Source: Escherichia coli (GTDB lineage Bacteria > Pseudomonadota > Gammaproteobacteria > Enterobacterales > Enterobacteriaceae). From it: a stretch of 64,000 nucleotides of DNA. The position numbers and the translations under genes were made by a program. Below are positions 9,756-37,983 of the stretch, in pieces. The notes under the pieces were generated by a model. It saw nothing but the letters and a program-made list of their open reading frames with translations, did no database searches and was not told the origin of the DNA. The stretch lies in NCBI RefSeq assembly GCF_044324875.1, contig NZ_CP172185.1. The stretch is one strand, 5' to 3'. The first letter of the stretch is position 1. Every line of letters starts with the position of its first letter.

Positions 9756-11234
9756 TTACGCATTCGACCAGCTCTGGATCGAATCTTCATTCCCCAGCTC
9801 ACCATGCATCACTTCATACGATTTTTTCAGGATCACATCAGTGTGTTTGGTTAGGTCTTTGAAAATGCCTTTATTCATCGCGTTGTAGCGTTTGGCGTTG
9901 CTCTCAACAGGCATAAAGATATCTTTCACGCGAACCATTTTGTCGACAGCCGTTGCGTAATCCGGGTATAGCCCCAGACCTACCGCCGTATTAATCGCTG
10001 CCCCCAGGCTTGCACAACCATTAATGGCGTTACGGCGTGCCGGAAGGTTGAACACGTCGGCAAAAATCTGCATAAACAGATCGCTGTTCGAACCGCCGCC
10101 AGTAATGATCACATGCTTTGCAAAGTGATTCATTTCATTACACATATTGTCGTAATTGTTCTTCAGCGTCAGCGCCACGCTTTCCAGTATCGAACGATAT
10201 ATCCATGCGTAATCCATGCTGGAATCAAAGCCAATCATAATCCCGCGTTTGTACGGTTCCCACGGATTGGTCAGCCAGTCCAGCACCGTCATCAGACCAT
10301 TACAGCCTGGCGGCACACAAGAAGCTTTTTTGTTGAGTAAATCTTCCGGTGAAAGATCCTGCGCCCTGGCATCCTGAATTAACGACTCGCCTAGCATGTC
10401 GCGCAGCCAGCTCACCGTCCACATGCCTTTGCGAATACCGTAACCTTCATACAGCAAGGTTTGCGGAATAGAAGACATAATCGGCCAGTACGCTACCGGA
10501 TCTTTCGGCAGTACTTTGCCGTTCATCATCAACGCGATGTAAGTGCCAAGAGAAATTACCGCAGTTTCATCATCCAGTAACCCGGCTCCCAGTGCTTCTA
10601 CCGGTTTATCACTGGTGGTACAAACAACCGGCAGCCCAGCCGGGAAATGTGTCGCCAGCGCGGCTTGAGGAGTGATATGCCCAAGAACAGTGCCCGGCAT
10701 TTGCACATCAAACAGCATATGACGGGGGATATTAAACTTCTCCATGACTGCGGCATCTTCACTCCATGCCCAGGTCTTATAATCCACCGGCCACTGACCA
10801 AAATAGTTGGCGATATTGTCTTTAAACTCGCCGGTTAAGCGATGCGTCAGATAACCCGAAAAAGAGGTGACATATGCCACGTCAGGATTCGTATGTTCGT
10901 AAGGGCGTGTAACGCGTGCATCCTGCCAGCTAATCAACGGCGCAGCTGGCGTGCCATCGGCTTTCAATAACGCACGGCAGCAACGGATGGATCCCAGACC
11001 AATACCGACAATATCTTCTTTATTTCCGGCAAACTGACTCATCAAATCGTGACCGGCAAAGCATAATGATGCCCATAAATCGTCGTCAGGATGTTCTGCG
11101 GTATCGGCATCTGGCGTGTGCATCGGCTGCAATAAGCCTTTGCCTTCGCAAACCACATTACCTTCCAGATCGTACATCACCACTTTTGTGCTCTGACTTC
11201 CACCATCAATCCCTATGATGTATTTTTTCGACAT
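9756..11234 (-). CDS. ygcE: FGGY-family carbohydrate kinase
   Basis: 492 aa; N-terminal IGIDGGSQSTK typical of FGGY kinases. Confidence 0.88.
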   Translation of the reverse strand: MSKKYIIGIDGGSQSTKVVMYDLEGNVVCEGKGLLQPMHTPDADTAEHPDDDLWASLCFAGHDLMSQFAGNKEDIVGIGLGSIRCCRALLKADGTPAAPLISWQDARVTRPYEHTNPDVAYVTSFSGYLTHRLTGEFKDNIANYFGQWPVDYKTWAWSEDAAVMEKFNIPRHMLFDVQMPGTVLGHITPQAALATHFPAGLPVVCTTSDKPVEALGAGLLDDETAVISLGTYIALMMNGKVLPKDPVAYWPIMSSIPQTLLYEGYGIRKGMWTVSWLRDMLGESLIQDARAQDLSPEDLLNKKASCVPPGCNGLMTVLDWLTNPWEPYKRGIMIGFDSSMDYAWIYRSILESVALTLKNNYDNMCNEMNHFAKHVIITGGGSNSDLFMQIFADVFNLPARRNAINGCASLGAAINTAVGLGLYPDYATAVDKMVRVKDIFMPVESNAKRYNAMNKGIFKDLTKHTDVILKKSYEVMHGELGNEDSIQSWSNA

Positions 11235-11260
11235 GATTTTTCTCCTGTAATTTTCTGGAC

Positions 11261-12538
11261 TTACTTGCTGCTAGCCATAGCAGGGGCGCTATCAGCAGTA
11301 CGAATTTTTTGGAACAGCAAAAAGGTAAAGACGATCACCATGGCAAGCGCCGCCATGCCCATCAGCCACATATTGCGGTAGGCTTCTGCAGCGGGCAGGG
11401 TGTCTTGCCAGTAGCCGATAATCGGGTAAACGAAGACATCCGGCAGGAATCCAATCACCGAACAAATACCTACCGTGGTGCCCATAATGTAAGACGGTGT
11501 TCTCGCTTCGCCAGGGCAGGCCCAGTACAGCCCGCGTGAGGCGTAACAGGTGAATCCCAGCAGTAAAATCAGGCCAATCCCCATCGCGACCGATTGCGGG
11601 TTAGAGTTCGTGACGAGCAGGGCAGTTAACGCCAGCAAGCCGAGTACGGAAAGGATTTGGATCACGCGGGTAGGGGATTTCACTTTGCTGTAGGTGGTGA
11701 TAATGCCACCAAGTGGGCCGCACAGTGCGCGGAAGATTTTGTTGATCACAATCCCCATGTAGCTCGCCGCCACCAGCGACATGCCGTACATTTCGGTCAG
11801 ATAGTTGGTGGAGTAACTCAGAATGGCGTAGATGGTGAAGACACCAAAAATCACCATGCTGCAATACCAGGTGGTGCTGATGCGCAAAACAGCCAGGATG
11901 TCGCTAAGCTGGAATGACTGTTTTTCTTCGTTATTGGTATTGCACAGGTTGTTGTTATCGCTAACAAAAAACCAACACAAAATGCCCAGCAGAATGTAAA
12001 CCACACTATAGATAATAATGACCGTTTTCAGGCTGGCGCTGTCATCCGGTGCAAAGCGAGAAAAGACCCACATGGTAAACACCGCCAGCGACATTACACC
12101 GACGCCGCGCAGCCCTTCCATCCAGCCCATAATTTTCCCTTGCTCGCTATGATCGCCCAGCAACGAGGCGGCTTTAATCGACACCGACCACAGCATTAAA
12201 ATAGTGGTTATCGCAAAGGCGACCTGAATACAGAGCATTACCCACAGCGGTGGATATGTTGCCATTAACAGACCCAGTAATCCGGTAATGATCATCGCGG
12301 AAGTAATCATTTTGCGGTGTGAAAATTTATCGGCAATAACGCCGCTGGGGGCATAAAGAATAATAGCCGCAATACCAAAGGTACTCATTATTAAACCTAT
12401 CTCGGTATTGCTGAATCCCATAAATTTCGCCATGGGAATTTGATAAATATAACGTAAATAAGCCAGGTCGAAACTAACGCCGCCGCTAAAACTAATTATC
12501 GCGAGGGTTATCCAACGGCGATATGAGTTGTGTTGCAT
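11261..12538 (-). CDS. yqcE: MFS transporter
   Basis: 425 aa, about 12 predicted TM helices. Confidence 0.85.
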   Translation of the reverse strand: MQHNSYRRWITLAIISFSGGVSFDLAYLRYIYQIPMAKFMGFSNTEIGLIMSTFGIAAIILYAPSGVIADKFSHRKMITSAMIITGLLGLLMATYPPLWVMLCIQVAFAITTILMLWSVSIKAASLLGDHSEQGKIMGWMEGLRGVGVMSLAVFTMWVFSRFAPDDSASLKTVIIIYSVVYILLGILCWFFVSDNNNLCNTNNEEKQSFQLSDILAVLRISTTWYCSMVIFGVFTIYAILSYSTNYLTEMYGMSLVAASYMGIVINKIFRALCGPLGGIITTYSKVKSPTRVIQILSVLGLLALTALLVTNSNPQSVAMGIGLILLLGFTCYASRGLYWACPGEARTPSYIMGTTVGICSVIGFLPDVFVYPIIGYWQDTLPAAEAYRNMWLMGMAALAMVIVFTFLLFQKIRTADSAPAMASSK

Positions 12539-18217: not shown

Positions 18218-18322
18218 GCCGGATGATCCTGCCTACGGTTCTGGGCTGGGGACTTGTAAGCCTGATAAGACGCGTCAAGCGTCGTATCAGGCGCTGAATG
18301 TCGGATGTGGCGTGCAGCCTAC
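18218..18322. repeat. REP/BIME-type extragenic palindromic repeat cluster
   Basis: GCCTGATAAGACGCGTCAAGCGTCGTATCAGGC palindrome plus flanking GCCGGATG.. and ..GCAGCCTAC units between convergent ygcQ and ygcP. Confidence 0.6.
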
Positions 18323-24815: not shown

Positions 24816-25550
24816 ATGTCCAAACTCGATCTAAACGCCCTGAACGAACTGCCGAAGGTAGATCGCATTCTGGCGCTGGCAGAAACTAACGCCGAACTGG
24901 AAAAACTGGATGCTGAAGGCCGCGTTGCCTGGGCGCTGGATAATCTGCCCGGTGAATATGTACTTTCTTCCAGTTTCGGCATTCAGGCGGCGGTGAGCCT
25001 GCATCTGGTGAATCAGATTCACCCGGATATCCCGGTGATCCTGACCGATACGGGTTATCTGTTCCCGGAAACCTACCGCTTTATTGACGAGTTAACGGAC
25101 AAACTCAAGCTCAACCTGAAAGTGTACCGCGCTACCGAAAGCGCCGCCTGGCAGGAAGCGCGCTACGGCAAACTGTGGGAGCAGGGTGTTGAAGGCATTG
25201 AAAAGTACAATGACATCAACAAAGTCGAACCGATGAACCGGGCGCTGAAAGAACTGAATGCGCAAACGTGGTTTGCTGGCCTGCGCCGCGAACAATCCGG
25301 CAGTCGCGCCAATTTACCGGTGCTGGCAATTCAGCGTGGCGTATTTAAAGTGCTGCCGATTATCGACTGGGATAACCGAACGATATATCAGTATCTGCAA
25401 AAACATGGCCTGAAATATCATCCATTATGGGACGAAGGATATTTATCCGTCGGTGATACCCATACAACCCGTAAATGGGAACCCGGCATGGCGGAAGAAG
25501 AAACGCGTTTCTTTGGCTTAAAAAGGGAATGTGGGCTGCACGAAGGGTAA
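24816..25550 (+). CDS. cysH: Phosphoadenosine phosphosulfate (PAPS) reductase
   Basis: ORF 24663..25550; start set at ATG 24816 ([11 protein letters not shown]) after GAGG; 244 aa; C-terminal ECGLH motif. Confidence 0.95.
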
Positions 25551-25815
25551 AATATCGTACCGCTTAATAAACGTCTCTGTCTGAAAAGATGGGGGCGTTT
25601 TTATTTTGCGAGCAGCATTCCTGATTTTAAACGTGAACGCCGCTGGAAGAATTATCAAGTATAGAATGGCGTTGGGTGCTTGAGGCTGTCTGGCGTTAAG
25701 CATTCGCGAGGTTCCAGATGGACAAAAGCCCCAGGCGATATTTCTATCAACCTGAGGCCAGCGTTCGAACCTAAGCAATTCGAATGTTAGTCTCTTCTTT
25801 GCAGGGAGGCAAGAC

Positions 25816-25968
25816 ATGCTGACAAAATATGCCCTTGTGGCAATCATCGTACTGTGTTGTACAGTACTGGGATTCACGCTGATGGTAGGCGACTCGTTGT
25901 GTGAGTTGAGTATCAGAGAACGTGGTATGGAGTTTAAGGCAGTTCTCGCTTACGAATCGAAGAAGTAG
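25816..25968 (+). CDS. Hok/Gef-family type I toxin (50 aa)
   Basis: Not in ORF track (<60 aa). ATG 25816 preceded by GGGAGG; product [50 protein letters not shown] has the Hok architecture (single TM then DSLCEL..); followed by ACGCGGGG-loop-CCCCGCGT hairpin (25974..25995). Confidence 0.75.
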
Positions 25969-26319
25969 CCACCACGCGGGGGTAAAACCCCGCGTATTGA
26001 ATTGTGATGGTTTGGTCTCCTGCACCCTTTTTTAATTTATATTGTTTATGTGAATATTATGCCTATGTTTATTATTCATATATATTACGGATGAAAATTA
26101 TTTGATTATTCATAATGTGCAAAATGGCATCTGAATCGATCGCAGTTTGGCATTCGAATCGATCATGATTTGGCATCCATCTCCGATCACAGTTTGGCAT
26201 CACAATCGATCACGATTTGGCATGCTTCCGATCATTGATTGGCATCCTGCCAGTCACTCCGGGAATTAACTCTTTTCACCACAGTCTCCATTGCCGTGTT
26301 TAAACCAGTGGAGACGTCA

Positions 26320-27885
26320 ATGTCCAGAAAGAGAAAATCCAGGAGCACTATGGAAACCTGTTTTAAGATCCTTCAGCTCAAGTTCGACAAGAAGCTGACT
26401 AACCGTTGTATCGGACTGACGTTACACATCAGCGCCTCAACCGTTTTTGAGGTTCTTGCCCGCTTCAAAGCCTCTTCTCTGTCATGGCCATTACCTGCTG
26501 ATATATCCCATGACACGCTGGAGAAACTCATTTTTCCGCCCAAAGACACCTTTGCATCAGAGCTTGTAATGCCTGACATGTTGTACTTCGATACGGAAAT
26601 GAGAAAACCAGGTGTGACGCGGCAACTGTTGTGGATGGAATACAAGGCACAGGCGGGTAACAAAGCGATGGGATACTCGCACTTCTGCCGTTGCTACCGG
26701 GAGTGGAAAAAAACGCGACGTCTCTCCATGCGCCAGGAGCATCGTGCCGGCGAAAAGCTTTTTATCGACTTCTGTGGTCCTACGGTTCCTGTTATTAATC
26801 CGGACACCGGTGAGATACGCCGCGTGGCAATCTTCGTGGCCGTAATGGGGGCGTCCAACTATACCTACGTTGAAGCGTGCGAAGGTCAGGACATGATGTC
26901 ATGGTTAAATGCCCACAGCCGTTGCCTGACCTTCCTGGGCGGCGTACCGAAGCTGCTCATCCCCGATAACCTCAGAAGCGCAGTGAAAAAGGCCGATCGA
27001 TATGAGCCTGTCATCAACGACAGTTATCAGGCACTGGCTGAGCACTATGGCACGGTTATCATCCCGGCCCGACCACGCAAACCTAAAGATAAACCAAAAG
27101 CAGAAAACGGCGTCCTCATCGTTGAACGATGGCTTCTTGCCCGCATCCGTAATGAAACCTTCCACACGCTCAGGGCGCTGAATGCGCGCCTTAGGGAGTT
27201 ACTGACAGACATGAATAACCGGCCAATGAAGGGGTACGGCAATCAAACCCGTGCAGAACGCTTCCGCATACTGGATGCGCCAGCACTCTCTCCGCTGCCT
27301 CTGGCACCTTATGAATACACGGAATACAAAGCTGTGAAGGTTGGCCCTGACTACCACGTTGAATATGCCCGTCACTGGTACTCCGTTCCACACGAACTGG
27401 TCGGTCAGCGTCTGTCACTGAAGGCGGGGCAGTCGGTGGTACAGCTCTGGCACAAGGGGCAGTGTGTGGCGCAACATCCGCGCAGCACACATGAATATAA
27501 ACACACAACCAATCCGCTTCACATGCCAGAGCGCCACCGGCAGCACGGGACATGGACACCGGAACGCCTGATCGAGCAGGGAAAACGTACGGGCCCGTCC
27601 ACAGGCCGGGTGGTTGAATCCATGCTGAAGGCAAAACCCCATCCGGAACTGGCTTATCGTGCAGTTCTGGGGCTGCTGGCACTTCAGAAAAAATACGGCC
27701 CGGAACGGCTGGAAAAGGCCTGTTACGTTGCCCTGCACTATAACGCCCCTGACAGACGCTTTATCGACAATCTGCTGCGTCACCATCGGGAGAACCTGGA
27801 GCTTCCATTATCCCGCCAGGGCGAACAACATCCGGCATATGCTTCAGAGCATGAAAACCTGCGTGGTCCGGGCTACTACCACTGA
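26320..27885 (+). CDS. istA: IS21-family transposase IstA
   Basis: ORF 26239..27885; start set at ATG 26320 (MSRKRK..); N-terminal HTH region and DDE-type core. Confidence 0.85.
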   Translation: MSRKRKSRSTMETCFKILQLKFDKKLTNRCIGLTLHISASTVFEVLARFKASSLSWPLPADISHDTLEKLIFPPKDTFASELVMPDMLYFDTEMRKPGVTRQLLWMEYKAQAGNKAMGYSHFCRCYREWKKTRRLSMRQEHRAGEKLFIDFCGPTVPVINPDTGEIRRVAIFVAVMGASNYTYVEACEGQDMMSWLNAHSRCLTFLGGVPKLLIPDNLRSAVKKADRYEPVINDSYQALAEHYGTVIIPARPRKPKDKPKAENGVLIVERWLLARIRNETFHTLRALNARLRELLTDMNNRPMKGYGNQTRAERFRILDAPALSPLPLAPYEYTEYKAVKVGPDYHVEYARHWYSVPHELVGQRLSLKAGQSVVQLWHKGQCVAQHPRSTHEYKHTTNPLHMPERHRQHGTWTPERLIEQGKRTGPSTGRVVESMLKAKPHPELAYRAVLGLLALQKKYGPERLEKACYVALHYNAPDRRFIDNLLRHHRENLELPLSRQGEQHPAYASEHENLRGPGYYH

Positions 27886-27901
27886 CAGAAGGAACAACAG
27901 T

Positions 27902-28657
27902 ATGAGTGATAACCTGTTAAACAAACTGACCCAACTGAAACTCCCGGCGATGGCCGGGAGCCTGATACGGCAGCGGGAAACGCCTCAGACCTACGACGAA
28001 CTGTCGTTCGAGGAAAGGCTGACGCTGCTGGTTGATGACGAGCTTCTGAGCAGGGAAAACAGCCGTGTGGCACGGTTGAGAAAAAATGCCGGCCTGAAAT
28101 ACCAGGCAACACCGGAAGGGCTGCGCTATCCGGCCTCAAGAGGTCTGCGGGCTGAACAGATGAGAGAACTGCTGAACGGCCACTACATAACCCACAGGAA
28201 AAACCTGCTGATAACCGGTCCGACAGGATGTGGCAAGAGCTGGATAGCCAATGCGCTGGGCGAACAGGCATGTCGACAGAAACACAGCGTCCGGTACTGT
28301 AGAACCGGGCGATTACTGGAACAACTGGCTCAGGGACGTGTTGATGGCAGCTGGCTGAAATATCTGAAACAGTTGCAAAAAATACAGGTTCTAATCCTGG
28401 ACGATCTGGGGCTGGAACAGTTAAGTAACGCCCAGTGTAATGACCTTCTGGAGCTCATAGAGGATCGTTACGGACAAAGCAGCACGATAGTGGTAAGCCA
28501 GTTCCCGGTAGATAAATGGCATGGTCTGATGGAGAACCCAACAACAGCAGATGCCATCCTGGACAGACTGGTACATAACTCACACCGAGTGGTCCTTCAG
28601 GGAGAGTCACTGAGGAAAAATCCCCCGGTAGTGGAAAGCAGCGAAAAAACGCGTTAA
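27902..28657 (+). CDS. istB: IS21-family ATP-binding helper protein IstB
   Basis: ORF 27659..28657; start set at ATG 27902 (MSDNLLNKLTQL); Walker A GPTGCGKS, Walker B ILDDLG. Confidence 0.88.
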   Translation: MSDNLLNKLTQLKLPAMAGSLIRQRETPQTYDELSFEERLTLLVDDELLSRENSRVARLRKNAGLKYQATPEGLRYPASRGLRAEQMRELLNGHYITHRKNLLITGPTGCGKSWIANALGEQACRQKHSVRYCRTGRLLEQLAQGRVDGSWLKYLKQLQKIQVLILDDLGLEQLSNAQCNDLLELIEDRYGQSSTIVVSQFPVDKWHGLMENPTTADAILDRLVHNSHRVVLQGESLRKNPPVVESSEKTR

Positions 28658-28808
28658 AAAGCGGTAGAAAAAGTTAAGTTCCCGGTTGATCGAATGGATG
28701 CGAATCGCTGATCGGACTTCGATGCCAATCCGTGATCGAATAGAGCGGAATACGCACATAATGTAAATATTTTATTGAACGATATATATCACAGATAATT
28801 TTTAATAT

Positions 28809-31508
28809 ATGCGTAAATATCCTTTAAGTTTACTGAAGGATAAAAATATTGTGACTTTTTTTGATTTCTGGGGAAAAACCCGACGCGGCGAGAAAGACGG
28901 GGGCGACGACTATCACCTTCTTTGCTGGCATTCGCTGGATGTAGCCGCGATGGGCTATTTAATGGTTAAAAGCAATTGCTTCGGGCTGACTGACTATTTT
29001 CGTCAACTAGGTTTCGCTGATACGGAGCAGGCAGCACAATTTTTCGCCTGGCTATTGTGCTGGCACGATACTGGAAAATTTGCCCGCTCTTTTCAGCAAC
29101 TTTACCTGCACCCACAACTCAAGGTTCCGGAAGGCGCAAGAAAGAATTACGAAAAGATCTCTCATTCAACGCTGGGCTACTGGCTGTGGCATCATTATTT
29201 AAGTGAATACGAAGAATTGCTTCCTTCATCTTCACTCTCTCCGCGCAAACTTAAACGGGTGATGGAGATGTGGATGCCCATAACTACCGGGCATCATGGT
29301 CGCCCGCCTGACCGTATTGATGAACTGGATAATTTTCTGCCTGAAGACAAAGCTGCCGCGCGAGATTTTCTTCTTGAAATCAAACCACTGTTTCCGCTCA
29401 TAGAGATCCCCGCATTCTGGGATGATGATGAGGGCATTGAACTTATAAAACACCTTTCCTGGTATATCTCTGCAACCGTCGTGCTCGCAGACTGGACGGG
29501 TTCGTCAACGCGATTTTTTCCACGCGTCGCACACCCAATGGATATTAAAGGTTACTGGCAGAAAACTTTAGTTCAGGCTCAAAACGCCTTAACCGTCTTT
29601 CCTCTAAAAGCAAAAGTCGCGCCTTTCACCGGAATTAATACGCTGTTTCCTTTTATTGAGAATCCGACACCGTTACAGCAAAAGGTGCTGGATCTGGATA
29701 TCAGCCAGCCAGGGCCACAGTTATTTATTCTGGAAGATGTGACTGGCGCAGGTAAAACGGAAGCGGCGCTTATCCTGGCGCACAGGTTGATGGCTGCGGG
29801 TAAAGCGCAGGGTTTGTTTTTTGGCCTGCCAACAATGGCAACGGCCAATGCCATGTACGATCGACTGGTCAAAACCTGGCTTGCTTTCTATTCGCCAGAG
29901 TCCCGCCCCAGCCTGGTGCTGGCACACAGTGCCCGAACATTAATGGACCGCTTTAATGAATCACTCTGGTCCGGTGATTTAGTCGGGTCAGAAGAACCGG
30001 ATGAACAAACGTTCAGTCAGGGATGTGCGGCCTGGTTTGCCGACAGTAACAAGAAGGCGCTACTGGCTGAAATTGGCGTCGGCACGCTGGATCAGGCGAT
30101 GATGGCTGTGATGCCGTTCAAACATAATAATCTGCGGCTTCTGGGACTGAGTAACAAAATCCTGCTGGCTGATGAGATCCATGCCTGTGACGCTTACATG
30201 TCATGCATTCTTGAAGGGCTGATCGAGCGGCAGGCGCGTGGCGGAAACAGCGTCATTTTGCTTTCTGCCACGTTATCTCAACAGCAGTGCGACAAACTCG
30301 TTGCTGCCTTTGCGCGTGGTACAGAGGGCCAGCAAGAAGCTCCGTTCCTGGAAAAGGATGATTACCCCTGGCTGACGCACGTTACGAAATCCGATGTGCA
30401 TTCACACCGGGTAGCGACGCGCAAAGACGTTGAGCGTAGCGTGAGCGTGGGTTGGCTTCATAGCGAACAAGAATGTATTGCGCGTATCGAATCGGCAGTA
30501 AGTCAGGGGAAATGCATCGCCTGGATCCGGAATTCTGTCGATGACGCTATTAAGGTTTATCGTCAGTTGCTTGCCCGCGGCGTCATTCCTGCTTCCAGCC
30601 TTTCTCTGTTTCATAGCCGCTTTGCTTTTAGCGATCGCCAGCGAATTGAAACGGAAACGCTGGCACGCTTCGGTAAAGAAGATAGCTCACAGCGTGCCGG
30701 AAAAGTCCTCATTTGTACTCAGGTCTTAGAGTCGAGCGTTGATTGCGATATGGACGAAATGATTTCCGACCTGGCCCCTGTTGATTTGCTGATCCAGCGA
30801 GCGGGGCGATTACAGCGGCATATCCGCGATATTAATGGTCAGTTAAAGCGTGACGGAAAAGACGAGCGTTCCCCTCCTGAATTGCTGATTCTGGCCCCCG
30901 TCTGGGACGACGCTCCAGGTGACGAATGGTTCGGCAGTGCCATGCGTAACAGTGCATATGTCTATCCCGATCATGGACGAATCTGGCTGACGCAGCGTGT
31001 ACTGCGTGAGCAAGGCGCTATTCAAATGCCACACGCAGCCCGCCTTCTTATTGAATCAGTCTACGGTGAGGACGTGGTAATGCCGGAAGGATTTGCCCGC
31101 AGCGAGCAGGAGCAAGTGGGCAAATATTACTGCGATCGCGCAATGGCTAAAAAGTTTGTGCTGAACTTCAGGCCTGGCTATGCCGCCAATATCAACGATT
31201 ACCTTCCGGAAAAGCTGTCGACACGTCTGGCGGAGGAGTCTGTTTCCCTGTGGCTGGCTACCTGTATTGCCAGTGTGGTGAAGCCTTATGCCAACGGTGC
31301 TCACGCATGGGAAATGAGCGTTGTCAGAGTGCGTCGAAGCTGGTGGAAAAAACATCGGGATGAGTTTTCTTTACTGGAAGGGGAAGCGTTCAGGCAGTGG
31401 TGCATTGAACAGCGGAAAGATCCGGAGATGGCAAACGTGATTTTAGTTACCGATGACGAAAGTTGCGGGTATTCGGCTATGGAAGGATTGACTGGCAAGG
31501 TTGGTTGA
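28809..31508 (+). CDS. cas3: Cas3 nuclease/helicase (type I-E)
   Basis: 899 aa; HD nuclease motifs (LLCWHSLDVAA, WHDTGKF), DEAH-type helicase (GAGKTEAA, LADEIHA); immediately precedes cse1. Confidence 0.93.
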   Translation: MRKYPLSLLKDKNIVTFFDFWGKTRRGEKDGGDDYHLLCWHSLDVAAMGYLMVKSNCFGLTDYFRQLGFADTEQAAQFFAWLLCWHDTGKFARSFQQLYLHPQLKVPEGARKNYEKISHSTLGYWLWHHYLSEYEELLPSSSLSPRKLKRVMEMWMPITTGHHGRPPDRIDELDNFLPEDKAAARDFLLEIKPLFPLIEIPAFWDDDEGIELIKHLSWYISATVVLADWTGSSTRFFPRVAHPMDIKGYWQKTLVQAQNALTVFPLKAKVAPFTGINTLFPFIENPTPLQQKVLDLDISQPGPQLFILEDVTGAGKTEAALILAHRLMAAGKAQGLFFGLPTMATANAMYDRLVKTWLAFYSPESRPSLVLAHSARTLMDRFNESLWSGDLVGSEEPDEQTFSQGCAAWFADSNKKALLAEIGVGTLDQAMMAVMPFKHNNLRLLGLSNKILLADEIHACDAYMSCILEGLIERQARGGNSVILLSATLSQQQCDKLVAAFARGTEGQQEAPFLEKDDYPWLTHVTKSDVHSHRVATRKDVERSVSVGWLHSEQECIARIESAVSQGKCIAWIRNSVDDAIKVYRQLLARGVIPASSLSLFHSRFAFSDRQRIETETLARFGKEDSSQRAGKVLICTQVLESSVDCDMDEMISDLAPVDLLIQRAGRLQRHIRDINGQLKRDGKDERSPPELLILAPVWDDAPGDEWFGSAMRNSAYVYPDHGRIWLTQRVLREQGAIQMPHAARLLIESVYGEDVVMPEGFARSEQEQVGKYYCDRAMAKKFVLNFRPGYAANINDYLPEKLSTRLAEESVSLWLATCIASVVKPYANGAHAWEMSVVRVRRSWWKKHRDEFSLLEGEAFRQWCIEQRKDPEMANVILVTDDESCGYSAMEGLTGKVG

Positions 31509-31605: not shown

Positions 31606-33168
31606 ATGAACTCGTTTTCACTTCTGACAACCCCGTGGTTGCCCGTTCGTTATAAAGACGGAACGACAGGCAAACTGGCGCCTGTCGATCTGGCGGATGA
31701 AAATGTTGTCGATATTGCTGCGCCACGGGCAGATCTCCAGGGAGCGGCATGGCAGTTTTTGCTGGGGCTACTACAAACCAGCTTTGCGCCAAAAGATCAT
31801 CGTCGTTGGGATGATATCTGGGAAGACGGACTGGAATCTGAAAAGCTACGGGAAGCATTGCTGTCCTTAGAACACGCTTTCCAGTTTGGGCCAGATTCCC
31901 CTTCATTTATGCAGGATTTCGAGGCGCTCACAGGAGATAAAGTTCAGGTCGCTTCGCTACTGCCTGAGATTCCCGGCGCTCAAACAACGAAGTTTAATAA
32001 AGACCACTTTATCAAGCGTGGTGTAACGGAATACCTGTGCCCACATTGTTCTGCGTTAGCTCTGTTCTCCCTACAGTTAAATGCGCCGTCAGGTGGTAAA
32101 GGCTACCGCACCGGTTTACGCGGCGGTGGGCCGATGACCACTCTGATTGAATTACAGGAATATCAGGGCAATCAACAAACGCCCTTGTGGCGCAAACTGT
32201 GGCTCAATGTGATGCCGCAGGACGAAGCCGACTTACCGCTACCCAAAAAATTTGACGATCTGGTTTTCCCCTGGCTTGGCCCGACGCGTACCAGCGAACT
32301 GGCCGGTGCGGTGGTAACCGATGATCAGGTTAATAAACTCCAGGCGTACTGGGGAATGCCGCGGCGTATTCGTATTGATTTTAATACCACGACAGTCGGC
32401 AACTGCGATATTTGCGGCGAGCAGAACGACGCGCTCCTGAGCCTGATGACGACCAAAAATTACGGCGCGAATTATGCCATGTGGCAGCATCCCTTAACGC
32501 CTTACCGTGTACCCCTTAAAGAGGGCGGCGAGTTTTACTCGGTCAAACCACAACCAGGCGGTTTAATCTGGCGCGACTGGTTAGGCCTTATCGAAACGGG
32601 TAAATCAGAAAACAATACGGAACTTCCCGCGCTGGTGGTGAAACTCTTTAATGCCAGCAGTCTCAAGCAGGCAAAAGTGGGCCTGTGGGGATTTGGTTAT
32701 GATTTTGACAACATGAAAGCGCGCTGTTGGTACGAACACCATTTTCCGCTGCTGCTCGATAAAAAAGAAGGCCAGATACCGAAGCTGCGGCTGGCTGCGC
32801 AAACGGCTTCACGGATTCTGAGTCTGTTACGGAGTGCATTGAAAGAAGCGTGGTTCTCCGATCCAAAAGGTGCACGGGGTGATTTCAGTTTTGTGGATAT
32901 CGACTTCTGGAACAAAACTCAGCATCGCTTCCTGAGGTTAGTGCGCCACATTGAAGAAGGTCAGGATGCGGATGAATTACTCAGCAAATGGCAAAAGGAA
33001 ATTTGGTTATTCGCGCGTCAGGATTTTGACGAGCGTGTCTTCACCAATCCATATGAGCCCGTTGATTTGAAACGCGTCATGACCGCGCGCAAGAAATATT
33101 TTACAACATCGGCGGAGAAGCAAAATGCTAAAGCCGCCAGGGAGAAAAAGCAGGAGGCTGCTGAATGA
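31606..33168 (+). CDS. casA: Cascade large subunit Cse1/CasA
   Basis: ORF 31537..33168; start set at ATG 31606 (MNSFSLLTTPWLPVR), 6 nt after GAGG; size and position fit Cse1. Confidence 0.85.
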   Translation: MNSFSLLTTPWLPVRYKDGTTGKLAPVDLADENVVDIAAPRADLQGAAWQFLLGLLQTSFAPKDHRRWDDIWEDGLESEKLREALLSLEHAFQFGPDSPSFMQDFEALTGDKVQVASLLPEIPGAQTTKFNKDHFIKRGVTEYLCPHCSALALFSLQLNAPSGGKGYRTGLRGGGPMTTLIELQEYQGNQQTPLWRKLWLNVMPQDEADLPLPKKFDDLVFPWLGPTRTSELAGAVVTDDQVNKLQAYWGMPRRIRIDFNTTTVGNCDICGEQNDALLSLMTTKNYGANYAMWQHPLTPYRVPLKEGGEFYSVKPQPGGLIWRDWLGLIETGKSENNTELPALVVKLFNASSLKQAKVGLWGFGYDFDNMKARCWYEHHFPLLLDKKEGQIPKLRLAAQTASRILSLLRSALKEAWFSDPKGARGDFSFVDIDFWNKTQHRFLRLVRHIEEGQDADELLSKWQKEIWLFARQDFDERVFTNPYEPVDLKRVMTARKKYFTTSAEKQNAKAAREKKQEAAE

Positions 33169-33701
33169 GTATTGTAAAAGAGGAGCACAAAGCCACGCTG
33201 CGTAAATGGCACGAAGAGTTGCAGGAAAAACGCGGCAATCGTGCCAGTCTGCGGCGTAGCACAACGGTTAATGATGTTTGTCTGTCAGAAGGGTTTCGTT
33301 CTCTGCTGATGCAGACCCACACTTTGTGGAAAATTGAAGCACAAGAGTGGCGTTTTACCGCACTGGCGCTGGTCGCCGCAGTTAGCGCCAATGTTAAAGC
33401 TATTGATGAACGGCAGCCTTTTGCCGCGCAGCTGGCGGCGGTAATGTCGGAGGGGCGTTTTACTCGCCTGTCGGCAGTAAAAACGCCTGATGATTTACTG
33501 CGTCAGTTACGTCGCGCGGTCAAATTATTAAATGGTTCCGTCAATCTTATCTCTTTGGCAGAAGATATTTTCCGCTGGTGCCAGGAGAGCGACGACCTGC
33601 TCAATCATCACCGCCGCCAGCAGCGGCCAACAGAATTTATCCGTATCCGCTGGGCGCTGGAATATTACCAGGCTGGCGACGCCGATAACGAACAAAATTA
33701 A
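33165..33701 (+). CDS. casB: Cascade small subunit Cse2/CasB
   Basis: 178 aa; start overlaps casA stop (ATGA). Confidence 0.85.
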   Translation: MSIVKEEHKATLRKWHEELQEKRGNRASLRRSTTVNDVCLSEGFRSLLMQTHTLWKIEAQEWRFTALALVAAVSANVKAIDERQPFAAQLAAVMSEGRFTRLSAVKTPDDLLRQLRRAVKLLNGSVNLISLAEDIFRWCQESDDLLNHHRRQQRPTEFIRIRWALEYYQAGDADNEQN

Positions 33702-33715
33702 TAAAGGACTATCTC

Positions 33716-34771
33716 ATGACGACATTTATTCAGCTTCATTTGTTAACCGCTTACCCTGCTGCCAACCTTAACCGTGATGACACCGGTGCGCCAAAAACTG
33801 TGGTACTGGGTGGAGCAACGCGTCTGCGCGTTTCCTCACAAAGTCTGAAACGTGCGTGGCGCACTTCTGCACTTTTTGAACAGGCACTGGCGGGCCATAT
33901 TGGTATTCGCAGTGGGCGTATTGCGCGTGAGGCGGCAACTATCCTGATTGAGAAAGGCATCGAAGAGAAAAAAGCCATCGAATGGGCGGCAAAAATTGCG
34001 GATTATCTTGGGAAAGCTAAAAACGACAAAAAACCAAAAGATCCGCTCACTAACGCCGAAACTGAACAGCTAGTCCATATCAGCCCGGCAGAATTTGACG
34101 CCGTAAAAGCGCTGGCCCATCAACTGGCCGAAGAAAAGCGCGCGCCAAAAGAGGAAGATCTCGCTTTGTTACGTAAAGATCGCATGGCGGTAGATATCGC
34201 TATGTTTGGTCGTATGCTGGCGAATAAACCCGAATTTAATGTTGAAGCCGCCTGCCAGGTCGCGCATGCATTTGGTGTCAGTGAAACGATTGTCGAAGAT
34301 GATTTTTTCACCGCCGTTGATGATTTGCGCCAGGCTTCTGAAGATGCCGGTGCCGGGCATCTTGGTGAAACCGGATTCGGTTCTGCGCTGTTCTACACCT
34401 ATATCTGCATCGATAAAGATCTGCTGGTCGAAAACCTCGGCGGTGACGAAGCGTTAGCTAATCAGACCTTGCGCGCCTTTACGGAAGCCGCACTTAAAGT
34501 CTCCCCAACCGGCAAACAGAACAGCTTTGCCAGCCGTGCCTACGCCTCCTGGGCGCTGGCAGAAAAAGGCACTGAACAACCACGCTCTCTGGCGGCGGCT
34601 TTCTATGAACCCATTAATGGCACCCGGCAGTTAGATGTGGCGGTGCAGCGTATTACAACGCTTCGCGAAAATATGAATACGGTCTATGAACAGAAGACCG
34701 AATGCGCAAGCTTTGACGTGATGAACAAACAGGGAAGCATGAAGGACGTGCTGGACTTTATCTGCGCGTAA
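33716..34771 (+). CDS. casC: Cascade backbone Cas7e/CasC
   Basis: 351 aa; position and size in the type I-E operon. Confidence 0.88.
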   Translation: MTTFIQLHLLTAYPAANLNRDDTGAPKTVVLGGATRLRVSSQSLKRAWRTSALFEQALAGHIGIRSGRIAREAATILIEKGIEEKKAIEWAAKIADYLGKAKNDKKPKDPLTNAETEQLVHISPAEFDAVKALAHQLAEEKRAPKEEDLALLRKDRMAVDIAMFGRMLANKPEFNVEAACQVAHAFGVSETIVEDDFFTAVDDLRQASEDAGAGHLGETGFGSALFYTYICIDKDLLVENLGGDEALANQTLRAFTEAALKVSPTGKQNSFASRAYASWALAEKGTEQPRSLAAAFYEPINGTRQLDVAVQRITTLRENMNTVYEQKTECASFDVMNKQGSMKDVLDFICA

Positions 34772-34781
34772 GGGGCGGCTA

Positions 34782-35528
34782 ATGAGCCAATATTTGATTT
34801 TTCAGCTTCATGGGCCAATGGCATCCTGGGGCGTCGATGCCCCCGGCGAAGTGCGTCATACCCATGAACTGCCTTCGCGCTCAGCATTGCTGGGGCTGCT
34901 GGCTGCCGGGGTAGGGATTCGGCGTGATGATACCGAACGATTAAACGCGTTTAACCGCCACTATTCACTGGTGGTTTGCGCCAGCCGTAACCCGCGCTGG
35001 GCACGGGATTATCACACGGTCCAGATGCCAAAAGAGGTGCGTAAAGCGCGTTATTTCAGCCGTCGCGAAGAGTTGAGCGCCCCTGATCTTCTGAGCGCGA
35101 TTATCTCCCGGCGCGACTACTACACCGATGCCTGGTGGATGGTGGCGGTGGCAACAACCCCCGATGCGCCTTACAGGCTTGAACAGTTGCAGGACGGTTT
35201 ACGTCATCCGGTTTTTCCGCTTTATCTGGGGCGAAAAAGTCATCCGCTGGCGTTACCACTTGCGCCGTTACTGCTCGAAGGCAACGCGTCTGATGTCTTA
35301 CGTAACGCATACCAACAGTATCAGGATAGTTTCCGCGAACTGAAAGTCTCACTCCCGAAACTTCAGGATGAATGCTGGTGGGAAGGGGAACACGACGGCC
35401 TGGTCGCGAGCAAAATATTACGTCGCCGGGATGTTCCTTTAAATCGTCAGCAGTGGCTGTTTGGGGAACGCACCATCAATCAGGGGCCGTGGCTCAGCAA
35501 GGAGGAACCATGTACCTCTCAAGAATAA
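34782..35528 (+). CDS. casD: Cascade Cas5e/CasD
   Basis: 248 aa; position and size in the type I-E operon. Confidence 0.85.
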   Translation: MSQYLIFQLHGPMASWGVDAPGEVRHTHELPSRSALLGLLAAGVGIRRDDTERLNAFNRHYSLVVCASRNPRWARDYHTVQMPKEVRKARYFSRREELSAPDLLSAIISRRDYYTDAWWMVAVATTPDAPYRLEQLQDGLRHPVFPLYLGRKSHPLALPLAPLLLEGNASDVLRNAYQQYQDSFRELKVSLPKLQDECWWEGEHDGLVASKILRRRDVPLNRQQWLFGERTINQGPWLSKEEPCTSQE

Positions 35529-36156
35529 CCTTACATACCGGCCAGCTTTTGCCTGCGCAGTTGCTGCATTTGGTGGATCGCGGTGAATATGTAATGCATC
35601 AGTGGCTGTGGGATCTTTTTCCTGGCGGCAAAGAAAGGCAATTTCTTTATCGTCGGGAAGAACTCCAGGGGGCGTTTCGCTTTTTTGTCCTGTCGCAGGA
35701 ACGCCCGGCGGAAAGTGATATTTTCACCATCGAATGCCGACCATTTGCGCCAGAGTTGCGTACCGGACAATCCCTTTGTTTCAACCTGCGGGCGAATCCA
35801 ACAATTTGTAAAGCGGGCAAACGCCACGACTTGCTGATGGAGGCGAAACGGCAGGTGAGGGGGCAGGTGGAAGGAAGTGATGTCTGGTTGCATCAACAAC
35901 AGGCGGCGCTGGACTGGCTGGCAGCGCAGGGGGAAAGAAGCGGTTTTACACTACTGGATACCTCGGTCGATGCCTACCGACAACAGCAACTGCGGCGGGA
36001 AAACTCCCGGCAACTGATCCAGTTCAGTAGCGTGGATTATACGGGGATGCTTACGGTCACCGATCCTGGGTTATTTCTGCAACGTCTCAGTCAGGGGTAT
36101 GGCAAAAGCCGGGCGTTCGGTTGTGGTCTGATGCTGATCAAACCCGGAGCAGAGGC

Positions 36157-36160
<4 letters not shown>
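35510..36160 (+). CDS. casE: Cas6e/CasE pre-crRNA endoribonuclease
   Basis: ORF 35372..36160; start set at ATG 35510 (MYLSRITL) after AGGAGG; overlaps casD end. Confidence 0.88.
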
Positions 36161-37370
<1,210 letters not shown>

Positions 37371-37466
37371 GTTAGACGTTCTTTAAAAATAAGGAAATGT
37401 TTGAATTTAGTTGGTAGATTGTTGATGTGGAATAAATTTGTTTAAAAACAGATATGTATGCTTAGT
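37371..37466 (+). promoter_or_regulatory. CRISPR leader for cas-adjacent array
   Basis: AT-rich 96 bp between cas2 stop and first repeat; contains AGTTGGTAGATTGT at 37409..37422. Confidence 0.75.
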
Positions 37467-37983
37467 GTGTTCCCCGCGCCAGCGGGGATAAACCGCTTTT
37501 GTTTCTGATTTCTACGCCTGTGGGTAAGTGTTCCCCGCGCCAGCGGGGATAAACCGGAGCAACTACTCGCAGCACAACAGGCAGGTAGGTGTTCCCCGCG
37601 CCAGCGGGGATAAACCGTTTTCTCTAATTACAGTGATTTTTCAAAATCCGTGTTCCCCGCGCCAGCGGGGATAAACCGCGATTCAAAAATAAAATGACGA
37701 CGGAGGAGGCGTGTTCCCCGCGCCAGCGGGGATAAACCGCCGTCGAAGTGACCATGCTCTTTCATTGTGATGTGTTCCCCGCGCCAGCGGGGATAAACCG
37801 AACACAGCGTAAAACCGTCGCAGCCATGCCGAGAGTTCCCCGCGCCAGTGGGGATAAACCGATTGGTCGGTTATGCATCCTGCTAACCAGATTGTGTTCC
37901 CCGCACCAGCGGGGATAAACCGTAATATTAGACTAATGTTTTTTTGTTGAGTTCGTGTTCCCCCGCCACTGCGGTAGAACTCC
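37467..37983 (+). CRISPR. Type I-E CRISPR array, 9 repeats / 8 spacers (repeat GTGTTCCCCGCGCCAGCGGGGATAAACCG; terminal repeat degenerate)
   Basis: Repeats start at 37467, 37528, 37589, 37650, 37711, 37772, 37833, 37894, 37955 (61-bp period); repeats 7 and 8 carry point changes; repeat 9 is GTGTTCCCCCGCCACTGCGGTAGAACTCC. Confidence 0.97.

What the first reader, a model, noticed from the sequence alone, without database searches (positions are those of the whole stretch)
26111..28808. IS21-family element inserted about 50 bp upstream of cas3
A ~2.65-kb element with istA (521 aa from ATG 26320) and istB, multiple subterminal direct repeats at the left end and inverted copies at the right end, lies between the hok locus and cas3. 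Its right end (~28758..28763) is only about 50 bp from the cas3 ATG (28809), so the native cas3 promoter region is displaced; cas3 expression may depend on an IS-borne outward promoter or be reduced. No clean target-site duplication is visible, so the ends are approximate. From memory K-12 lacks this insertion.
Basis: partly seen in the sequence, partly recalled or inferred. Interest (0 to 1): 0.65.

Follow-up and report, generated by a model that had tools for sequence, protein, structure and literature searches.

The report
Known IS21-family element inserted before cas3
An intact copy of a common, plasmid-spread jumping gene (IS21 family, "ISSso4-type") sits 52 bases in front of the CRISPR nuclease gene cas3 of this E. 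coli; it is an ordinary strain-specific insertion, and its effect on cas3 expression is plausible but untested.

Summary
The element is 2,639 bp (window 26118-28756, TGCAAAATGG...GGAATACGCA). It encodes intact istA and istB in the same direction as cas3.

It does have a clean 7-bp target-site duplication, CATAATG (26111-26117 and 28757-28763). Removing the element and one repeat copy recreates a sequence found uninterrupted, at 99.9% identity, in many E. coli genomes.

Neither junction is present in any of 5,426 complete E. coli genomes, so the insertion is private to this strain. The element is identical to copies on many chromosomes and conjugative plasmids, so it is recent and probably active.

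The right end lies 52 nt from the annotated cas3 ATG (28809). About 140 bp of AT-rich native upstream DNA is pushed 2.6 kb away.

Whether that removes the cas3 promoter cannot be decided. K-12 is the wrong reference: its Cas3 is only 29% identical and its upstream DNA is unrelated. Promoter scans are no better than chance, and the IS end shows no convincing outward -35 box. No terminator separates istB from cas3, so read-through is possible.

This is a known element and a known kind of event, of low interest.

The parts
25674..25831 (+). sok antitoxin RNA / hok leader (context, upstream neighbour)
   Evidence: Rfam RF01794, 111.7 bits against a gathering score of 59
25816..25968 (+). Intact hok/gef toxin gene, 50 aa (context)
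   Evidence: ORF. The same position is annotated as a Hok/Gef family protein in strain 7/2. Its 3' hairpin lies at about 25975-25995.
26111..26117 (.). Left copy of the 7-bp target-site duplication CATAATG
   Evidence: Direct reading. The empty site in relatives holds a single copy.
26118..28756 (+). Complete IS21-family element (ISSso4-type), 2,639 bp, ends 5'-TG...CA-3'
   Evidence: The ends are constant in 13 copies from different sites. The copy is 100% identical over its full length to plasmid copies and to several chromosomal copies.
26118..26246 (+). Left end: terminal repeat plus five direct 18-nt subterminal repeats about 23 bp apart (presumed IstA binding sites)
   Evidence: A 23-bp spacing of direct repeats is described for IS21 ends in PMC10122671.
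26320..27885 (+). istA transposase: 521 aa from ATG 26320, or 511 aa from ATG 26350 (the PGAP start)
   Evidence: NF033546 at 284.6 bits, cutoff 160. Pfam rve and Mu-transpos_C_2 on the identical protein. The exact sequence occurs on 917 contigs.
27902..28657 (+). istB AAA+ helper ATPase, 251 aa
   Evidence: NF038214 at 257.8 bits, cutoff 200. Pfam PF01695. The exact sequence occurs on at least 1000 contigs and is named 'IS21-like element ISSso4 family helper ATPase IstB'.
28697..28756 (-). Right end: two inverted copies of the subterminal repeat plus the terminal repeat ending ...ACGCA
28757..28763 (.). Right copy of the 7-bp target-site duplication CATAATG
28764..28808 (+). Remnant of native cas3 upstream DNA left next to the gene. 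With the right repeat copy it makes 52 nt in all. It is very AT-rich and holds the weak promoter-like pair TTTATT-17-GATAAT (28771-28799).
   Evidence: There is no Shine-Dalgarno sequence before ATG 28809.
28809..31508 (+). cas3 (899 aa), intact
   Evidence: ORF. PGAP uses the same start in strain 7/2. The exact protein is indexed in 5,756 blocks of the assembly collection.
31606..37370 (+). casA, casB, cas7e, cas5e, cas6e, cas1e and cas2e, all open (context)
   Evidence: ORFs. The region is collinear at 99.5% with strain 7/2. The casA start is taken by collinearity with the PGAP annotation of strain 7/2.
37466..37922 (+). Type I-E CRISPR array, at least 8 repeats at 61-bp spacing (context)

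Best explanation
**Shown.** A recent, simple transposition placed one intact copy of a widespread, plasmid-borne IS21-family element (the type NCBI names 'ISSso4 family') into the AT-rich spacer between the hok/sok locus and cas3. This strain carries the non-K-12 type I-E cas allele.
- The element is 2,639 bp.
- It made a 7-bp target duplication (CATAATG).
- It lies in the same orientation as cas3, and its right end is 52 nt from the annotated cas3 ATG.
- cas3, the Cascade genes, cas1, cas2 and the CRISPR array are all intact.

**Inferred.**
- The insertion moves about 140 bp of native upstream DNA 2.6 kb away. Any cas3 promoter or upstream silencing site located more than 52 nt before the ATG is uncoupled from the gene.
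- cas3 can then be transcribed only from a weak promoter inside the remaining 52 nt, or by read-through from istAB, because no terminator lies between istB and cas3.
- My best guess, at modest confidence, is changed but not abolished cas3 transcription and little phenotypic effect. This relies on type I-E Cascade operons being H-NS-silenced in E. coli, which is established for K-12.

The event is a neutral or nearly neutral strain-specific IS hop, not a conserved regulatory arrangement.
For: **Family membership**
- IstA and IstB pass the curated NCBIfam cut-offs for IS21 transposase and helper.

**Ends and duplication**
- Ends are fixed by 13 independent copies, with target duplications of 5-7 bp.
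- The window has CATAATG on both sides.

**True insertion**
- The in-silico excised site matches 1,055 contiguous bp at 99.9% in many genomes.
- It is collinear with strain 7/2 on both sides.

**Rarity**
- 0 of 5,426 complete E. coli genomes hold either junction.
- None of the 35 contigs read that encode the identical Cas3 has it.
- The junction is absent from the 100,044 species-representative genomes.

**Recent and probably active**
- The element is 100% identical over 2,639 bp to plasmid copies and to chromosomal copies.
- Its proteins exactly match sequences seen on more than 900 contigs.

**Read-through is possible**
- No terminator-like site on the + strand.
- No excess RNA structure in 28640-28815, z = 0.77.

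**The CRISPR-Cas locus is otherwise intact**.
Against: - Nothing contradicts the structural account.
- The functional part is untested. The native cas3 promoter of this allele is unmapped, and promoter-like matches in the native spacer are no better than in shuffled sequence.
- No consensus promoter was found anywhere in 25900-29000.
- The IS right end has no good outward -35 box.
- The true cas3 start might be the in-frame GTG at 28851, which is preceded by AAGGA. That would leave 94 nt rather than 52 nt of native DNA for a promoter.
- Only one genome is available, so selection for or against the insertion cannot be judged.
Confidence: 0.85

Rival explanations
1. The insertion activates cas3. 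It does so either by read-through or hybrid-promoter transcription from the IS, or by separating cas3 from an upstream AT-rich H-NS nucleation region. IS1 and IS5 insertions upstream of bgl or flhDC relieve silencing in this way.
For: - The IS lies in the same orientation as cas3, with no terminator between istB and cas3.
- The displaced spacer is 18% G+C, typical of H-NS-bound DNA. That link is general knowledge, not tested here.
- IS21 proper carries a -35 box in its right end (PMC10122671).
Against: - This element's right end has only poor -35-like hexamers (TCGAAT, TAGAGC; score about 5 against 10.5 for lac).
- H-NS binding to this allele's upstream region has not been shown.
- The insertion is private to one genome, so there is no sign of selection.
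Confidence: 0.2
2. The insertion silences cas3 by cutting off its only promoter. The result is a strain with Cascade and the spacer-acquisition genes but no interference nuclease, which is a functional loss of CRISPR immunity.
For: - One of the better native candidates (TTGATT at 26102, 17-nt spacer, TTTATT at 28771) spans the insertion point and is destroyed.
- Another (TTAATT-17-TATTAT at 26032-26060) is moved 2.6 kb away.
- IS insertions in or near cas genes are a reported route of CRISPR-Cas modulation in Shigella (Chen et al. 2019, cited in PMC8616872).
Against: - These candidates score no better than chance.
- A comparable candidate remains downstream of the IS (28771-28799).
- Read-through from istAB is not blocked.
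Confidence: 0.25
3. The element is resident sequence or an assembly artefact rather than a true transposition.
For: None found.
Against: - A perfect 7-bp duplication flanks exact IS ends.
- The empty site exists in thousands of genomes.
- The element is identical to mobile copies elsewhere.
Confidence: 0.01

Closest known systems
IS21 family insertion sequences (IS21, IS5376; here the type NCBI labels 'ISSso4 family')
   Same: - Two genes: istA (a DDE transposase) followed by istB (an AAA+ helper).
- 5'-TG...CA-3' ends.
- Several subterminal repeats about 23 bp apart, direct at the left end and inverted at the right.
- A short target duplication.
- Two in-frame istA starts 10 codons apart, reminiscent of the IS21 transposase/cointegrase pair (PMC10122671).
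   Different: - Nothing essential differs.
- The target duplication is 5-7 bp and variable (7 bp here), against the uniform 5 bp reported for the IS21-family element studied in PMC10122671.
- There are more left-end repeats (five plus the terminal one) than the 'usually at least two' cited there.
- There is no convincing outward -35 box in the right end.
- Identity to the ISfinder ISSso4 reference sequence was not checked. Only the NCBI name is available.
IS insertions in or beside type I-E cas genes of E. coli and Shigella
   Same: A mobile element interrupts or abuts an otherwise intact cas locus. Other strains with the same Cas3 carry IS1A or an IS186-like element in the same hok-cas3 spacer.
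   Different: Those IS1 and IS186 insertions sit in the hok 3' hairpin, about 170 bp from cas3, and leave the whole cas3 upstream region attached. This one is 52 nt from the ATG and uses a different IS family.
IS-mediated promoter rewiring of H-NS-silenced operons (bgl, flhDC with IS1/IS5). From established knowledge, not tested here.
   Same: An IS lands in an AT-rich upstream region of a poorly expressed gene.
   Different: No expression data exist for this locus, and H-NS binding is known only for the K-12 cas allele, whose upstream DNA is unrelated.

Membership tests
IS21 family | istA encodes a DDE transposase of the IS21 type | tested here: met
   NF033546 (equivalog) at 284.6 bits against a cutoff of 160. 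Pfam rve and Mu-transpos_C_2 are recorded for the identical protein.
IS21 family | istB, immediately downstream, encodes the AAA+ helper ATPase | tested here: met
   NF038214 at 257.8 bits against a cutoff of 200. Pfam PF01695 IstB_IS21. Walker A (GPTGCGKS) and Walker B (LILDD) motifs are readable in the translation. istB starts 17 nt after the istA stop.
IS21 family | Terminal inverted repeats ending 5'-TG...CA-3', with multiple subterminal repeats | tested here: met
   Ends TGCAAAATGG...GGAATACGCA are constant in 13 copies. There are five direct repeats at the left end and two inverted at the right, 22-24 bp apart, and none elsewhere in the window.
IS21 family | Short target-site duplication on insertion | tested here: met
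   7 bp (CATAATG) here. It is 5-7 bp in 10 further copies with their own duplications. Two more copies have swapped flanks that pair up as 6-bp duplications.
IS21 family | Mobility: the same element at unrelated sites | tested here: met
   Identical or over 99% identical copies lie at many chromosomal and plasmid sites, up to 23 places per genome. Transposition activity of this particular copy cannot be tested.
ISSso4 (named ISfinder element) | Near-identity to the ISfinder reference sequence | not testable with these tools
   Only the NCBI/PGAP label 'IS21-like element ISSso4 family helper ATPase IstB' is available. The reference sequence is not held.
IS-driven expression of a neighbouring gene (outward or hybrid promoter) | An outward-facing -35 (or complete promoter) in the IS end, at functional spacing from a -10 box in the flank | tested here: inconclusive
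   The best pairing across the junction is TCGAAT-17-TAATGT, score 5.4. lac scores 10.5 and lacUV5 14.2 on the same rough scale. No consensus promoter was found. Sequence scans cannot exclude weak promoters.
IS-driven expression of a neighbouring gene (read-through) | Same orientation and no terminator between the IS genes and the neighbour | tested here: met
   istAB and cas3 are both on the + strand. There is no + strand terminator-like site and no excess structure in 28640-28815. An actual transcript was not tested.

The most novel reading that the evidence does not exclude
The insertion uncouples cas3 from its native AT-rich silencing region and couples it to istAB read-through. This natural isolate would then express Cas3 constitutively, or in step with transposase expression. 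That would be a natural example of an IS rewiring the rate-limiting nuclease of an otherwise silent type I-E system.
Probability: 0.12. Interest if true: 0.45.

Novelty: already known. Interest (0 to 1): 0.17.

Why it matters
- If cas3 expression is changed, this strain would be a natural test of how cas3 supply limits type I-E interference. It would also test whether IS hops modulate CRISPR immunity in commensal or clinical E. coli.
- As it stands, it is one private insertion of a well-known, plasmid-spread IS.
- Its main use is as a strain marker.
- It is also a reminder that K-12 cannot serve as reference for the cas3 upstream region of the other E. coli cas allele.

Tried and rejected
1. 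**First model of the ends.** I first took the IS to start at TGTGC (26116), giving 2,641 bp and a 5-bp duplication CATAA. This was rejected after comparing 13 copies. The conserved end is TGCAAAATGG (26118), and the 'TG' before it belongs to the 7-bp duplication.
2. **K-12 as empty-site and promoter reference.** Rejected. Homology stops at the hok ATG, and K-12 Cas3 is 29% identical. The CRP site and promoter of PMC7019758 are therefore irrelevant here.
3. **Consensus promoter scan of 25900-29000.** It found 0 sites.
4. **My own rough weight-matrix scan of empty and occupied sites.** It gave only weak candidates, no better than shuffles of the same DNA.
5. **Modelled IRR-IRL tandem junctions with 0-7 nt spacers, to locate an IS21-like -35 box in the right end.** The best score was 5.2, which is unconvincing.
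6. **Search for the source genome or a second instance of the junction.**
   - 0 in 5,426 complete E. coli genomes.
   - 0 in the species-representative genome collection.
   - None among the 35 contigs read that carry the identical Cas3.
7. **Literature searches.** Searches on the cas3 promoter and on IS insertions near cas genes found no promoter mapping for the non-K-12 allele. The papers naming ISSso4 mention it only in passing, in the one read.
Full report
**Context**

The window is an E. coli chromosome segment running pyrG-eno ... cysJIH, hok/sok, then cas3 and the rest of a type I-E cas operon, a CRISPR array, iap, cysDNC ... rpoS ... mutS. Around the finding, the order is as follows.

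| Feature | Window coordinates |
|---|---|
| cysH | ends at 25550 |
| sok RNA (Rfam RF01794, 111.7 bits) | 25674-25831 |
| intact 50-aa hok gene | 25816-25968 |
| the element under study | 26118-28756 |
| cas3 (899 aa) | 28809-31508 |

Yes. Two consecutive + strand genes fill the element.
- istA is an ORF ending at 27885.
- istB (27902-28657, 251 aa) starts 17 nt after the istA stop.
- IstA scores 284.6 bits on the curated IS21 transposase model NF033546 (cutoff 160). IstB scores 257.8 bits on the IS21 helper ATPase model NF038214 (cutoff 200).
- Both proteins are exact matches to sequences recorded on more than 900 contigs. IstB carries the NCBI name 'IS21-like element ISSso4 family helper ATPase IstB'.

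- An 18-nt motif occurs five times in direct orientation at 26137-26246, spaced 22-24 bp apart.
- It occurs twice in inverted orientation at 28697-28738.
- At up to 4 mismatches it occurs nowhere else in the 64-kb window.
- A 23-bp phasing of such repeats is described for IS21 ends (PMC10122671).

**Exact ends and the target duplication**

My first reading was that the IS started at TGTGC (26116) with a 5-bp repeat CATAA. That was wrong too.

I compared 13 copies: the window, two copies from complete genomes, and ten from one assembly. All share the ends TGCAAAATGG...GGAATACGCA and are exactly 2,639 bp long.
- Ten of the twelve other copies have their own 5-7 bp direct repeat; 6 bp is the commonest length.
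- Two copies in one genome have swapped flanks that pair up as two 6-bp duplications. This indicates an inversion between IS copies.

In the window the IS is therefore 26118-28756. It is flanked by a perfect 7-bp duplication, CATAATG, at 26111-26117 and 28757-28763.

**Is it an insertion?**

Yes.
- Joining 25600-26115 to 28762-29300, which leaves one copy of the repeat, gives a 1,055-nt sequence. That sequence is present as one uninterrupted 1,055-bp stretch at 99.9% identity in many E. coli genomes.
- 2,213 of 5,426 complete genomes cover at least 80% of it.
- Strain 7/2 is collinear with the window on both sides. The two alignments overlap by exactly the duplicated bases.

The insertion is also rare.
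- Neither the left junction (25900-26400) nor the right junction (28500-29000) is covered at 80% or more in any of the 5,426 complete genomes.
- None of the 35 contigs read that encode the identical Cas3 has it.
- The left junction is absent from 100,044 species-representative genomes.

The insertion is thus private to this strain, as far as these collections show.

**What the element is**

- It is 100% identical over all 2,639 bp to copies on many plasmids of E. coli and E. fergusonii.
- In all, 506 plasmid records match, most of them predicted conjugative. They include Salmonella, Shigella and Klebsiella plasmids.
- It is 99.5-100% identical to chromosomal copies. 225 of 5,426 complete genomes hold a near-full copy, with up to 23 places per genome.

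It is therefore a known, currently spreading IS, and this copy is recent and presumably active. I could not compare it with the ISfinder ISSso4 reference, so 'ISSso4-type' rests on the NCBI label only.

**Relation to cas3**

- The right IS end (28756) lies 52 nt from the ATG (28809) that PGAP also uses in relatives.
- In empty-site strains the hok stop and the cas3 ATG are 194 bp apart.
- After the hok 3' hairpin, this spacer is only 18% G+C.
- The insertion leaves 52 nt next to cas3 and moves about 140 bp to the far side of the IS.
- cas3 itself is intact, and its exact protein is very widespread.
- casA-E, cas1 and cas2 are open, and the array has at least 8 repeats.

**Can the effect on expression be judged?**

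Not from sequence.

- *K-12 is not a usable reference.* K-12 and this strain align from cysH through sok and the hok leader, and diverge at the hok ATG. K-12 Cas3 is only 29% identical. The K-12 cas3 promoter region and CRP site (PMC7019758) therefore have no counterpart here. I found no promoter mapping for this allele.
- *The consensus scan is empty.* It finds no sigma-70-like site in 25900-29000, against 3.3 expected in shuffles.
- *My own rough matrix scan gives only weak candidates.*

| Candidate | Position | Score | Fate after insertion |
|---|---|---|---|
| TTAATT-17-TATTAT | 26032-26060 | 9.7 | moved 2.6 kb away |
| TTGATT-17-TTTATT | 26102 / 28771 | 8.3 | split by the IS |
| TTTATT-17-GATAAT | 28771-28799 | 8.0 | retained downstream of the IS |

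The best of these is no better than shuffles of the same spacer. Shuffles average 10.6, and 68% of them reach 9.7. On the same scale lac scores 10.5 and lacUV5 14.2.

- *No convincing outward promoter.* IS21 proper has a -35 box in its right end that forms a strong promoter only in tandem arrays (PMC10122671). In this element the best -35-like hexamers in the right end (TCGAAT, TAGAGC) give scores of about 5, both in modelled tandem junctions and against the cas3 flank.
- *Read-through is possible.* No terminator-like site lies on the + strand between istB and cas3. The RNA of 28640-28815 is no more structured than shuffles, z = 0.77.
- *The cas3 start is uncertain.* ATG 28809 has no Shine-Dalgarno sequence. 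An in-frame GTG at 28851 is preceded by AAGGA. If that is the true start, 94 nt of native DNA remain. Alternatively, the retained candidate at 28771-28799 would give a nearly leaderless mRNA.

**Verdict**

The structural claim is confirmed and sharpened: exact ends, a 7-bp duplication, an empty site, and an insertion private to this strain. The functional claim is a reasonable but untested hypothesis.
- Displacement of upstream DNA is a fact.
- Displacement of the promoter is not established.
- An IS-borne outward promoter has no support.
- Read-through is possible.

IS insertions in and around type I-E cas loci are a known phenomenon. Examples are Shigella (Chen et al. 2019, cited in PMC8616872) and the IS1A and IS186-like insertions in the same spacer of other strains. 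This is a known element doing a known thing, of low interest unless expression data show a real rewiring of cas3.

Noticed in passing
window 25674-25968, compared with L001 (K-12) 11150-11700: K-12 and this strain are homologous from cysH through sok and the hok leader, and diverge exactly at the hok ATG. K-12 keeps only sokX and a hok stub, followed by an unrelated cas3 upstream region and a Cas3 only 29% identical. This strain has an intact 50-aa hok. The boundary between the two E. coli type I-E cas alleles thus lies at the hok start codon.
   Followed up: partly
L003 (NZ_CP180393) and L004/L007; equivalent to window 25979-25994: Other strains with the identical Cas3 carry IS1A (9-bp duplication AACCCCGCG) or an IS186-like element (12-bp duplication GGGGTAAAACCC) inside the hok 3' hairpin GGGGGTAAAACCCC. 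This is a recurrent IS target about 170 bp upstream of cas3. Draft contigs L009 and L010 break at the same hairpin.
   Followed up: partly
L015 and L018 (GCA_027278235.1): Two copies of the same IS have swapped flanks. CACAGG is left of one copy and right of the other, and GTCATT the reverse. This implies an inversion of about 0.4 Mb by recombination between the two copies. The same assembly holds at least 10 copies of the IS.
   Followed up: no
window 28809 versus 28851: The annotated cas3 ATG has no Shine-Dalgarno sequence (TTTTTAATAT precedes it). An in-frame GTG 14 codons downstream is preceded by AAGGA at 10 nt. It would give an N-terminus closer in length to K-12 Cas3 relative to the conserved WGK motif. 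The true start is uncertain.
   Followed up: no
window 26320 and 26350: istA has two in-frame ATGs 10 codons apart, each with its own Shine-Dalgarno-like sequence (GGAG, AGGAG). This recalls the full-length transposase and shorter 'cointegrase' isoforms described for IS21 IstA (PMC10122671).
   Followed up: no
L011 (GCA_012465485.1), start of contig: A draft contig encoding the identical Cas3 begins only 5 nt upstream of the cas3 ATG. This may mark another repeat or IS insertion immediately before cas3 in that strain.
   Followed up: no
window 18275-18278 versus L002 3277-4625: Strain 7/2 carries an IS1397 (IS3 family) between ygcQ and ygcP that is absent from the window. The cysJIH side of the window is only 97.8% identical to strain 7/2, while the cas side is 99.5% identical. 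This suggests a recombination boundary near the hok-cas3 region.
   Followed up: no
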